Below are positions 32,663 to 35,600 of a DNA stretch of 64,000 nucleotides, one piece after another. Made by a program: the position numbers. Source of the DNA: Trueperaceae bacterium (lineage in GTDB: Bacteria > Deinococcota > Deinococci > Deinococcales > Trueperaceae); NCBI GenBank assembly GCA_965215565.1, contig CBDCDZ010000004.1, forward strand, positions 3,808,001-3,872,000, in the 5' to 3' direction. The stretch's first letter is position 1. Each line of letters starts with the position of its first letter.

Positions 32663-35600
32663 TCAAGTATAGCGCGCCGCGGAGCGTCGGAGACCCTTCT
32701 TACGGAGAAAGGCTGATGGAGAAACGCTAACTTCGCCGGTGGTTCTAAGTTAAACGTCGCCTTGTGCTCTTTCTACCACTCACTATGATGAACAAGGGGT
32801 TGAAACCCCTTGCTTTGACATCCGTGTCGTAACAGATGGCGTCACCACCAAAATGATCCACAACGAATGGGAAGGTGTCCTGTTCTGTGCATATGCGGAG
32901 GCGGCGCTACGCCTCTCGCGGCTGCATACACAAGACGTGGTACGCCGCCCGAACATGTAGCACAACCGAGTAAAAACGCTCGAGTAAAAAGATGATGTAA
33001 GCGCGACACAACACTACCTTAAAAAATAAGGTATACTCCATTCAACTTGAAAGCGAGGTAGACCTTATGACCCTGACCCCCGAAAGAGAACGCGCCCTCA
33101 ACACCACCCTCTCGCAGATCGAGAAACAGTTTGGCAAAGGGGCTGTCATGCGCCTGGGCGACGAAGGGAGCCTGACCCCCCAAGGCGTCATCTCAACGGG
33201 CTCGATGTCAGTGGACTTGGCATTAGGGGTAGGCGGGGTACCGAGAGGACGGATCATCGAGGTGTACGGACCCGAGTCCGGGGGTAAAACCACGCTCTCA
33301 CTTCATATCGTGGCGGAAGCGCAAAAACAAGGCGGCGTGGCTGCGTTCGTAGACGCCGAACACGCCCTGGACCCCTCCTACGCGAAAGCACTCGGCGTGG
33401 ATACCGAAAACCTGCTGGTCTCGCAACCCGATACGGGCGAACAAGCCTTGGAGATCACCGAACTCCTGGTTCGTAGCGGCGCAGTGGACGTGATCGTGGT
33501 GGACTCGGTGGCTGCTCTCGTGCCCAGGGCTGAAATCGAAGGGGAGATGGGCGACTCTCACGTCGGCTTACAAGCCCGCTTGATGAGCCAAGCCTTGCGC
33601 AAGCTAACAGGTGTTTTATCCAAAAGCCACACCACGGCGATTTTTATCAACCAGATCAGAGAGAAGATCGGCGTGTTGTACGGCAACCCGGAGACGACGC
33701 CTGGGGGACGCGCCCTGAAGTTCTACTCCTCAGTCAGGATGGAAGTGAGACGTAAAGGGGACGTGAAGTCGGGCGCAGATAAGGTAGGGAACCGCACCCG
33801 GGTCAAGGTCACGAAGAACAAAGTTGCGCCGCCCTTTAAGGAAGCGGAAGTGGAGATCATGTTCGGACGGGGGATTGACAAACTCGGGGACCTGATCAAC
33901 ATCGCTAGTGACTTAGACATCGTGCAGAAGTCGGGCTCGTTCTATAAGTACGAGGGCAGTACGATTGGGCAGGGCAAGGAGAAAGCGAGTACCTACCTAG
34001 AGGAGCACCCACAGCTCATCGAGGAGGTCAAGCAGAAGGTCATGGCTGCGATTCAAGGTGTGCCCTATGAGCCTAAAGTGGGTGGGGATGATGGTGACGA
34101 AGGGCTATTCTCGAGCGCGAACTGAGCGAGTGTGAAAGAAAGGTGGTCTCGAGGCTGCTTCTCTGCTGTTAGCAGGTATCATCTGGTCAGAGACACTCCT
34201 AGTGGAGAAAGTATTCTTTCCTGCGGAAAACTTTGTAACTAGCACGCACATTAAAAGATAATATCTGCGCTCATCTGTCTCAGTATGTTGTGGAAGTGCT
34301 GTGTGAATAAGAGGTCATACAACACCCACGTTTCATCCTCGCAACGCCTCATCTAACCACACGAGCCCCTGCGCTGCCCGTTCTTTGAGCGCGTCTATAT
34401 TGACGTTGGCTTCTAAAGGCGGCGTGCTCACGGCTTCTACCACATCATCTAGCTTTAGGGGCAAGTGATACGCAGGCGCGCCCGCCTCTTCTGCGAACGC
34501 CGCCACTTTGGGGTCATAAACGACGCCGCTAAAGGGACGCCGCGCCGCCGCCGCGAAGATGAGCCCGTGCAGCCGCGCCGAGACGATGTGCGTTGCCCCT
34601 GCGACGGTACTCAGCGCTGCGCTCGGCGTGTCGGCGCGCCAGAGCGCGAGTTCGGGCACCGCTTCTTTAAGTTTTTTAAGAGGTGCGTCATCTTGCCCCG
34701 GTTGAATTGCCATGCCCGCCAGGGGCACGCCCTTGACGCGCAGCGCCTTGGCTAGGTCGATGAGCGCGTCTGTGATCTCGGGGTAGCCCCCCCTAGGGAT
34801 AAGCAGGGCGGGCGGTGTGAGGCTCATCGTGGTGGTGCCCTTAGGCTCCGGGAGGAGCAGGGCGGCGTCCGCCACCAGCGCGGCGTCGATATCCAGCGCG
34901 GCGAGCAGCCGCCGCGACGCGCTGTCTCGCACTGCAACGGGAACATCCTTTAAGGTCCGCCGCACGGTGCGCGCCCCGGCGGGGCTGAGCGGCCCGACGG
35001 ACTGCCCGTAAACCACGCAGCGCTTGCCGAGCGCTTTAGCGAGGCGCAGGATGCCCAAGTAGTAGCGCAAGCTCCGCGTGCTCGTCCTGTCCTGCAAAAG
35101 CCCGCCGCCGCCTGAAATGACGGCGTCACACTGCACGAGGGCGCTCGGCAGACCCTTGTAGCGCGTGACCGCCGCGACGCCGTGCAGCGCCCTCGTCTTC
35201 TCGGGGTTGTTGGACAAGACGCTGAGGTGGTGCCCGTGCGCCCGGAGCCCCGTCACCAAGCCGCTCAAGATAGCCTCGTCGCCCAGGTTGCCGAAACCGT
35301 AGTAGCCGCTGATAAGAACCTTCATGCGCAGTCCCCTAAGCCTGCGGGACGCGGCGCGCGCCCGTGAGCCAGCGCTTCACACCGCCCGTCAAAAAGCGCG
35401 CGAGCGGCACGAGGAGCAGCCCGACGGCGAGACCTAGCGCCAGCGCGACGAGGGTGCGCTCCAACGAGACGAGCAGCGGCGTGTGGTAGTGGCTGAACGA
35501 GTTGACGATGCTCGCTTGCGCCACCACGCCCCCAGTGAGCAGCAGCCCCTTGAGCCAGTCCGCCCAGCCGCCGTTCGTGAGCGCGAGCACTGCCAGCGGG

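What a model noticed while it worked through the whole genome (the two positions that open the first line are those of the whole stretch)
33015..34125. Two recA genes kept identical by gene conversion, one under the LexA box, one in the cinA-recA-rny operon
recA is present twice (g00368 at 292 kb, g03685 at 3,841 kb). The copies are 99.9% identical over 999 bases but have different ends and promoters. The pair is old and evolves in concert, like tufA/tufB: one copy is operon-borne without a box, the other stands alone behind the LexA box.
Evidence so far: One mismatch in 999 nt. In 9 genomes with two whole or near-whole copies (of 11 examined; G028 gave one copy, G054 only fragments) the cores are 98.7-100% identical within a genome but 62-86% between genomes. 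The solo copy keeps its neighbours between G022 and G023 (86% identity between species, 100% within) and between G024 and G025, so the duplication predates these splits. The box is present before 10 of 10 solo copies and 0 of 9 operon copies.
(Added by a program. Inside this text positions count along the whole contig: contig position 3,808,001 is position 1 of the stretch shown here. "Call 12" and the like, gene names such as g00115 and contig names such as C1 are that model's own, and its searches are not shown. The text may have been shortened before it was handed on; [...] marks where a part breaks off. The agent that wrote the report below was given it as the finding of a first reader that could run no searches.)

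Follow-up and report, generated by a model that had tools for sequence, protein, structure and literature searches.

The report
Twin recA genes kept identical
Most well-assembled genomes of a little-studied bacterial family related to Deinococcus carry two distant copies of the normally single DNA-repair gene recA that have been copied onto each other for the whole history of the family, one in a housekeeping operon and one behind what looks like a previously undescribed damage-response switch.

Summary
Confirmed and extended. The window's recA shares 998 of 999 nt with a cinA-recA-rny operon copy 3.55 Mb away. Contigs of public runs branch at the shared 5' boundary with doubled depth, so the identity is real. 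Of 128 family genomes, 24 (14 genera) hold two whole copies: 14 pairs have identical cores and 22 are at least 98.9% alike, against 58-97% between genomes. All 24 pair by genome in the tree. The solo copy keeps korAB neighbours in 10 genera, and its N-terminal helix sorts by locus, so the duplication is old. A palindrome, TACCTTA-N5-TAAGGTA, precedes 25 of 25 solo copies, 0 of 25 operon copies and 22 of 26 lexA orthologues; no full-length IrrE was found. Extra recA copies in the sister family differ by 13-20% from the main copy. Best reading: a family-wide duplication homogenised by gene conversion, with a basal operon copy and a LexA-inducible copy. LexA binding and induction are untested. 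recA is absent from the published list of 26 such prokaryotic genes.

The parts
33015..33033 (.). Perfect 19-bp palindrome TACCTTA-N5-TAAGGTA, the putative LexA operator
   Evidence: Also before lexA in this genome and in 22 of 26 lexA orthologues, and before 25 of 25 solo recA copies. Exact-pattern search: 32 of 41 genomes match; the reversed control gives 1 hit in all.
33032..33037 (+). TATACT, a putative -10 element overlapping the last two bases of the operator
   Evidence: TAnnnT starts at this place in 22 of 34 solo loci. The consensus scanner did not list it as a full -35/-10 promoter.
33067..34125 (+). Solo recA, 352 aa
   Evidence: PF00154 E 2e-139; TIGR02012 549 bits over a 325 cut-off.
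33067..33100 (+). Solo-specific 5' end (start of the N-terminal helix; [11 protein letters not shown] against MDEQRKRSL in the operon copy)
   Evidence: sorts by locus across genera.
33101..34099 (+). Homogenised core shared with the operon copy at C4:292037-293035 (exact over 33101-34094)
   Evidence: Run contigs branch at 33101-33130, with depth 40 inside against 14-20 in the flanks in run X1.
34095..34125 (+). Solo-specific C-terminal tail (ends EGLFSSAN; the operon copy ends GEADEE and overlaps the rny start)
30605..32659 (-). ligA, divergent upstream neighbour; not shared with the solo locus of other genomes
2524..2970 (-). 148-aa GemA-like ORF, another putative member of the same regulon
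   Evidence: PF06252 E 2e-5, below the cut-off; orthologues in 4 of 5 genomes, with an exact box upstream in G001 and G055.
2991..3009 (.). Second perfect copy of the palindrome in this window, 20 nt before the GemA-like ORF

Best explanation
recA was duplicated once, at or near the root of this family (Trueperaceae by its best named match). The ancestral copy stayed in cinA-recA-rny without an operator. The new copy came under a family-specific LexA whose operator overlaps the -10 element. Since then intrachromosomal gene conversion, mostly without crossover, has overwritten the shared core again and again, in both directions, with tracts that stop near the divergent ends. SHOWN: identity in the DNA; grouping by genome; old orthology of the loci; shifting tract ends; the box distribution. 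INFERRED: RecA-dependent double-strand-break repair is the converting process, as for tuf, so RecA homogenises its own genes. The operon copy supplies basal RecA and the damage sensor, tied to RNase Y expression. The solo copy supplies an inducible burst after LexA cleavage without raising rny. Identity is favoured because both products co-assemble in one filament. This LexA circuit takes the place of the Deinococcus IrrE/DdrO switch.
For: 24 pairs from 14 genera: 14 identical over 918 nt, 22 at 98.9% or more; G000 is 100% within against 86.3% (65.4% at third positions) to its nearest congener. Quartet sites over all 276 genome pairs: 70,207 group by genome, 2 by locus, 1 crossed. The tree pairs copies by genome in 24 of 24. 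An AU test on the 10 non-identical pairs rejects a solo clade, p 7e-41. korA follows the solo copy at 14 loci in 10 genera whose solo cores are as little as 58% alike; KorA and Rny trees share their well-supported groups. The 12 N-terminal residues favour locus over crossed grouping 83 to 20 between genera; 0-2 of 5000 label permutations reach the score in 5 draws of 15 genera. Tract 5' ends vary from nt 1 to 61 in 23 pairs. G116's solo copy carries the operon-type start, and G002's operon copy carries solo-type codons. Box: 25 of 25 solo, 0 of 25 operon, 22 of 26 lexA. In genus g37 the box reads CCGTA/TACGG and the LexA recognition-helix region reads ITYVT instead of IHYVS in 4 of 4. LexA keeps the Ala-Gly, Ser and Lys motifs. 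No full-length IrrE in 81 family genomes. The tuf pair of G000 is 100% identical over 1,220 nt, so conversion operates in this genome.
Against: No binding, expression or induction data. G019 (94.7%, longest exact run 71 nt) and G046 (97.9%) are only loosely homogenised. Three g35 genomes and G121 show only the solo copy, and in the three checked no recA lies in the 1.5 kb before rny, so the split is dispensable there. Three fragmented g8 genomes have a 3-mismatch box inside the operon. N-terminal differences are erased or nearly so in G019, G116, G138, G142 and G143. In g1, g4, g18, g34, g17 and g43 the solo neighbours are not shared between genera. One g37 lexA box (G088) keeps the ordinary right half. 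The predicted regulon in G000 is small: 8 sites above 21 bits, before lexA, recA, a photolyase-family gene and unknowns. LexA scores 106.9 bits, just under the TIGR00498 cut-off of 110.95. Kin are not independent, so the permutation p-values overstate.
Confidence: 0.74

Rival explanations
1. The duplication is old and conversion is real, but the regulatory split is wrong or incidental: the palindrome is bound by another regulator, or the operon copy is also damage-inducible through an unknown factor, and homogenisation is a neutral by-product of repair.
For: No binding data. G000 has two further S24 peptidase-domain proteins. Single-copy lineages survive with either copy. Most G000 targets are not classical SOS genes.
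Against: The box sits at the lexA start in 22 of 26 orthologues but not before a 32%-identity paralogue. Box and LexA helix co-vary in g37. It overlaps a -10-like hexamer in 22 of 34 solo loci. No box-like site above 6.4 bits lies in the 2.3 kb before recA in 27 operon loci.
Confidence: 0.12
2. Two or a few independent old duplications (one in the korAB-linked genera, others in G000's half of the family), each followed by concerted evolution and convergent capture of the LexA box.
For: Solo neighbours are not shared between the two halves. This korA type has no tblastn hit in G000. Solo C-tails fall into two styles, ending in ..LF.. or ..LEA.
Against: Between the two halves the N-terminal helix is closer for same-locus pairs in 70 comparisons, closer for crossed pairs in 8, tied in 78. 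The same promoter geometry occurs in both. The four other families have no such pair.
Confidence: 0.08
3. Each species duplicated recA recently and independently; there is no conversion.
For: Copies group by genome in 24 of 24. G000's solo copy has other neighbours than those of its two congeners.
Against: It needs 24 duplications that land behind the same box, at 14 loci before korAB, and regenerate locus-specific ends. Congeners G001/G002, G005/G054, G055/G056 and G141-G143 share solo neighbours while their cores differ by 12-19%.
Confidence: 0.03
4. The identity is made by assemblers or polishers that overwrite one copy with the other.
For: Polishing can erase small differences between repeats (general knowledge). 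Runs X1 and X2 are one sample and may be the source of this assembly.
Against: Run contigs end at 33130 and start at 33101, with about double depth and no other letters in the listed core pieces. In 5 of 5 fragmented genomes with two 5' stubs, both contigs end in the same 55-141 nt. Ten pairs keep 1-49 differences, and G001 keeps a one-base gap in one copy. No assembler merges sequences 14-40% apart.
Confidence: 0.02

Closest known systems
tufA/tufB and the 26 prokaryotic genes under long-lasting recurrent concerted evolution (PMC6053082; PMC5485169)
   Same: Dispersed chromosomal paralogues in distinct conserved contexts that group by species, are alike at synonymous sites, and have conversion bounded by the gene's ends. 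G000's own tuf pair behaves the same.
   Different: recA is not in the paper's two tables, main text or four held supplements. Its only Deinococcales-specific entry is ftsH. Here the copies differ in a damage-response operator, and the converted gene encodes the recombinase itself.
mtrA-1/mtrA-2 of methanogens (PMC4632066)
   Same: A homogenised core domain with locus-specific ends; synteny is used to reject recent duplication (passages).
   Different: In mtrA the ends are fused transmembrane domains within one operon. Here they are short terminal peptides and separate promoters up to megabases apart.
Myxococcus xanthus recA1/recA2 (PMC7029660)
   Same: Two chromosomal recA genes conserved across a group, one with a LexA box and one without (passages).
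   Different: The proteins are 64.6% identical and functionally diverged, and neither is in an operon. Here the cores are identical.
Deinococcus deserti recA-C, recA-P1 and recA-P3 (PMC2669436), and extra recA copies in the sister family
   Same: Same phylum; the ancestral copy follows cinA; two extra copies encode identical proteins (passages).
   Different: The extra copies are plasmid-borne, 81% identical to the chromosomal RecA, and carry the IrrE-linked radiation/desiccation motif. In 9 sister-family genomes the extra copies are 79.7-87.1% identical to the main copy; only extra-to-extra pairs reach 98-100%.
Acaryochloris marina recA paralogues (PMC11086944)
   Same: Several recA copies, old and recent, with different expression (passages).
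   Different: Diverged paralogues; 'gene conversion' does not occur in the text.
Canonical LexA/SOS regulons
   Same: A winged-helix plus S24 repressor with a palindromic site before lexA and recA, overlapping the promoter.
   Different: The motif CCTTA-N5-TAAGG was not found in my searches, and it differs from the boxes I recall for other phyla (recalled, no call).

Membership tests
Long-lasting recurrent concerted evolution (criteria of PMC6053082) | Paralogues of one species group together in the tree | tested here: met
   24 of 24; AU p 7e-41 on the 10 non-identical pairs.
Long-lasting recurrent concerted evolution (criteria of PMC6053082) | Each copy keeps its synteny across species | tested here: met
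   Operon copy: cinA and/or rny in 25 of 25. Solo copy: korA at 14 loci in 10 genera, genus-level synteny in four more genera; G000's own solo neighbours are unique.
Long-lasting recurrent concerted evolution (criteria of PMC6053082) | Seen in at least five species | tested here: met
   24 species-level genomes, 14 genera.
Long-lasting recurrent concerted evolution (criteria of PMC6053082) | Synonymous sites are homogenised too, not only the protein | tested here: met
   Third-position identity 85.6-100% within genomes against a median of 43% between.
Long-lasting recurrent concerted evolution (criteria of PMC6053082) | Duration of hundreds of millions of years | not tested
   No dating was done; only family-level depth is shown.
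RecA recombinase | Full-length family match above the curated cut-off, both copies | tested here: met
   TIGR02012 549 and 547 bits against 325.
LexA/SOS regulon | Repressor with LexA DNA-binding domain, S24 domain, Ala-Gly site and Ser-Lys dyad | tested here: met
   PF01726 and PF00717 over their cut-offs. Motif patterns (positions recalled) found in 26, 27 and 24 of 27 sequences. TIGR00498 is 4 bits under its cut-off.
LexA/SOS regulon | Same palindrome before lexA and recA | tested here: met
   22 of 26 lexA at 3 or fewer mismatches; 25 of 25 solo recA.
LexA/SOS regulon | LexA binds the site and is cleaved on activated RecA; targets are damage-inducible | not testable with these tools
   Needs EMSA, a cleavage assay and RNA data.
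LexA/SOS regulon | The regulon holds other repair genes | tested here: inconclusive
   G000 has 8 sites above 21 bits (shuffles 0-1): lexA, recA, a photolyase-family gene, a GemA-like ORF and unknowns.
Deinococcus IrrE/DdrO radiation response | IrrE protease present | tested here: not met
   No tblastn hit in G000 with two IrrE-like queries. Only 4 weak partial matches (E 2e-7 or worse, query residues 35-139) in 81 family genomes. The queries' name IrrE is my reading of PF06114 hits in the sister family.
Deinococcus IrrE/DdrO radiation response | DdrO and its motif upstream of cinA | not tested
   No DdrO query was obtained.
Diverged recA paralogues (Myxococcus, Acaryochloris, Deinococcus plasmid type) | Copies diverged in the core | tested here: not met
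   Cores 94.7-100% identical.

The most novel reading that the evidence does not exclude
A whole bacterial family runs a two-locus, one-protein SOS amplifier. A basal recA tied to RNase Y senses damage, a LexA-locked twin supplies the burst, and RecA keeps its own two genes identical, while locus-specific N-terminal helices and C-tails are retained by selection and give two isoforms that tune filament assembly. This circuit, with an undescribed LexA motif, replaces IrrE/DdrO in the radiation-resistant sister group of Deinococcus.
Probability: 0.3. Interest if true: 0.85.

Novelty: new variant of a known kind. Interest (0 to 1): 0.7.

Why it matters
recA is the textbook single-copy gene, and the duplicates described so far have diverged. 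A family-wide, converted pair adds the recombinase itself to a short list (26 genes in PMC6053082) of long-lived concerted evolution, and shows a regulatory split preserved while the protein core stays the same. The motif gives a direct test of how this family induces DNA repair without IrrE, in a phylum where the Deinococcus response is IrrE-driven. It also has a practical side. The identical 1-kb repeat breaks short-read assemblies: 22 of 68 family genomes rated at least 90% complete lack a strong recA match, against 1 of 182 in the other families (partly confounded by assembly type). recA-based markers will under-count or mis-join this family.

Tried and rejected
Assembly artefact and independent recent duplication: rejected (see rivals). 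No RNA holder was listed for the stretch. Runs X3 and X4 gave no usable cover. The 'joint' skipping 32822-34166 in run X1 joins two dispersed repeat families that also lie close together elsewhere (11 of 73 copies), so I do not read it as excision of recA. G004 and G099 were labelled 'solo' by my script only because they touch contig ends; G004's whole copy has operon neighbours. Both were left out of the box counts. G079 was left out of identity counts (N gaps in both copies) but kept for box and N-terminus counts. G243 was located but not fetched; 9 of 15 multi-copy sister-family genomes were compared. Look-ups in earlier findings found nothing on this pair. Ten literature searches found no paper on a converted recA pair or on this motif; most subscription papers are outside the library. 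PMC11981726 mentions Truepera only for DinG.

Full report
OBSERVATION. The window holds a 352-aa recA at 33067-34125. BLASTN against its own genome (G000, 4.49 Mb, 4 contigs) finds one other copy: window 33101-34099 matches C4:292037-293035 at 998 of 999 nt, with 994 nt exact. That copy lies between cinA and rny, and its stop overlaps the rny start. The window copy stands alone, divergent from ligA, 33 nt behind a perfect palindrome, TACCTTA-N5-TAAGGTA. The two proteins differ only in about 12 N-terminal and 7-10 C-terminal residues.

IS THE IDENTITY REAL? Logan contigs of two runs of one sample were laid on the locus. In both runs a contig ends at 33130 and the next begins at 33101, the start of the shared core. 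Depth is 40 against 14-20 in flanking pieces (X1) and 9.7 against 2.4-4 (X2), with no other letters in those pieces. These runs may be the source of the assembly, but the branch is a property of their k-mers. Other-letter rows inside the core come from short contigs that may be other organisms. In 5 of 5 fragmented genomes with two recA 5' stubs, both contigs end in the same 55-141 nt; one stub has the box and the other has operon neighbours. The tuf pair of G000 is also 100% identical over 1,220 nt.

HOW WIDESPREAD. Among the 28 assemblies of about 20 contigs or fewer, 21 have two whole copies, 2 have two loci broken at recA (G079, G004), 1 has a copy starting at a contig end (G099) and 4 show one copy (three of genus g35, and G115 at 81% completeness). 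Every pair is one operon copy plus one solo copy. In the rest of the phylum, 0 of 77 genomes of three families and 15 of 105 of the fourth have extra copies. In the 9 of those 15 compared, extra copies are 79.7-87.1% identical to the main copy, also when both lie on the main contig; only extra-to-extra pairs reach 98.0 and 100%.

CONCERTED EVOLUTION. Over a 918-nt core, 14 of 24 pairs are identical, 22 are at least 98.9% alike, G046 is 97.9% and G019 94.7%. Between genomes, solo copies are 58.2-97.2% alike (median 69.4%; third positions 43%). Quartet sites group by genome 70,207 times, by locus twice and crossed once. The tree pairs the copies by genome in 24 of 24 cases, and an AU test on the 10 non-identical pairs rejects a solo clade. 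This pattern alone could also come from recent duplications, so I tested the age of the loci. First, korA (2-oxoacid:acceptor oxidoreductase alpha) follows the solo copy at 14 loci in 10 genera, whose solo cores go down to 58% identity, and KorA and Rny trees of 12 genomes share their well-supported groups, differing in weakly supported ones. Second, congeners in g1, g4, g34 and g43 share solo neighbours while their cores differ by 12-22%. Third, the 12 residues before the conserved IEKQ motif sort by locus: 83 locus-type against 20 crossed sites between genera, and 70 against 8 (78 ties) between the korAB genera and the rest. Kin are not independent, so the permutation values (0-2 of 5000) overstate. 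Fourth, tract ends move: 5' ends lie between nt 1 and 61 in 23 pairs, 7 of them exactly at nt 52. G116's solo copy has taken the operon-type start that its congener G114 lacks, and G002's operon copy has solo-type codons, which points to conversion in both directions. Against a single origin: G000's solo neighbours differ from those of its two congeners, and this korA type was not found in G000.

CROSSOVER. All 24 whole pairs keep box-recA and recA-rny in the parental combination, in direct and in inverted orientation; G046's operon copy has lost cinA. Two fragmented genomes, G083 and G139, join an operon upstream to a solo downstream. These may be mis-joins across the repeat or real crossovers; I cannot tell.

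THE BOX. Four perfect copies exist in G000: before lexA, before solo recA, before a GemA-like ORF in this window and before a 64-aa ORF. A matrix built from 32 other solo sites finds 8 sites above 21 bits (shuffles 0-1), one of them before a photolyase-family gene. At 3 or fewer mismatches the box precedes 25 of 25 solo copies; all 25 operon copies have 5 or more. It precedes 22 of 26 lexA orthologues among 30 loci returned; two more have 4 mismatches, two have 5, a 32% paralogue has none, two loci had no hit, and G110 was left out. An exact search hits 32 of 41 genomes, with 1 control hit in all. A TAnnnT hexamer starts at the last TA of the box in 22 of 34 solo loci. In g37 the box shifts to CCGTA/TACGG and the LexA helix region to ITYVT, though one g37 lexA box keeps the ordinary right half. 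In 16 genomes of the other families the best full-length LexA-like matches are only 30-37% identical. IrrE-like queries from the sister family find nothing in G000 and only 4 weak partial matches in 81 family genomes; DdrO was not tested. Exceptions: g35 and G121 show only the boxed copy (G121's box lies just beyond my first 300-nt window), and in G121 cinA precedes rny with no recA between. Three fragmented g8 genomes have a 3-mismatch box inside the operon, while G009 of the same genus does not.

MECHANISM. Shown: real identity, old loci, moving tracts, the box pattern. From established knowledge: conversion between tuf copies follows RecA-dependent double-strand-break repair and is bounded by the homology (PMC5485169, abstract and Introduction). 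Inferred: the same process acts here, so RecA maintains its own genes. The operon copy cannot easily be put under SOS control or deleted, because it is coupled to rny; a second, LexA-locked copy gives an inducible surge, while the basal copy triggers LexA cleavage. Both products should enter one filament, which would favour identity. That the divergent ends are the polymerisation helix and the regulatory acidic tail is recalled from RecA structure; their erasure in five genomes says that the difference is not essential.

COMPARISON AND NOVELTY. The systematic survey of Wang and Chen lists 26 prokaryotic genes under long-lasting concerted evolution; recA is not among them (PMC6053082: first of six parts with both tables, passages, and a search of four held supplements). 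Its criteria of grouping, synteny, five species and synonymous identity are met here; age was not dated. Known recA duplicates have diverged: M. xanthus 64.6% (PMC7029660, passages), D. deserti 81% between plasmid and chromosomal proteins (PMC2669436, passages) and Acaryochloris (PMC11086944, passages). mtrA is the nearest case of a converted core with distinct ends (PMC4632066, passages). Ten searches (listings only, apart from the papers named) found no report of this pair or motif. Subscription papers and regulon databases were not searchable, so prior mention cannot be excluded.

VERDICT. Real, family-wide and apparently unreported: a new variant of a known kind. Interest 0.70; confidence in the combined explanation 0.74, and about 0.95 that the pair is old and evolves in concert.

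Noticed in passing
window 32738-32853 and 34166-34305: Two unrelated dispersed intergenic repeat families flank the solo recA: 73 and 293 BLAST hits in G000, both able to fold into hairpins; 11 of the 73 lie within 300 nt of the second family. They may be REP- or MITE-like and could bear on why this copy has moved relative to its congeners.
   Followed up: partly
L289:4735-4958 (C4:1144734): The top-scoring box lies 10 nt before a 64-aa ORF with a hydrophobic stretch, conserved in 3 of 5 genomes tested and with an exact box in G001 and G002. It resembles small SOS-induced membrane division inhibitors (recalled). 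It follows a phage-like repressor region with an S24 protein.
   Followed up: partly
window 2524-3009: GemA-like 148-aa ORF behind a perfect box, 97% identical in G001 and present in 4 of 5 genomes; a conserved regulon member of unknown role.
   Followed up: partly
L293:1819-2242 (C4:4352318): A boxed 127-aa ORF without a Pfam match; Atlas neighbours are hypothetical proteins, with a weak lead to primase large-subunit or PriX-like domains.
   Followed up: partly
L185, L186, L187 (G122-G124): Genus g8: the operon recA has a lengthened cinA-recA spacer holding a conserved 3-mismatch box, as if the two loci had merged into one; the assemblies are fragmented.
   Followed up: partly
L204 (G083), L191 (G139): Flank-swapped recA loci (cinA upstream, solo neighbours downstream): a mis-join or a real crossover.
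   Followed up: partly
L035 and L036 (G002): The two copies lie only 36 kb apart in direct orientation, where a crossover would delete or amplify the segment between them.
   Followed up: no
L031:6703-9056: The cinA-recA gap is mostly 20-330 nt in this family against 540-910 nt in most outgroup loci, which fits loss of the ligT gene that PMC2669436 places there in Deinococcus.
   Followed up: no
G000 contig C3: C3 (23.7 kb) is a direct self-repeat with a period of about 11 kb, probably a doubled circular element.
   Followed up: no
window 34333-37168: The polysaccharide pyruvyl transferase and DUF5693 genes downstream of G000's solo recA lie upstream of the operon copy in several other genera.
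   Followed up: no
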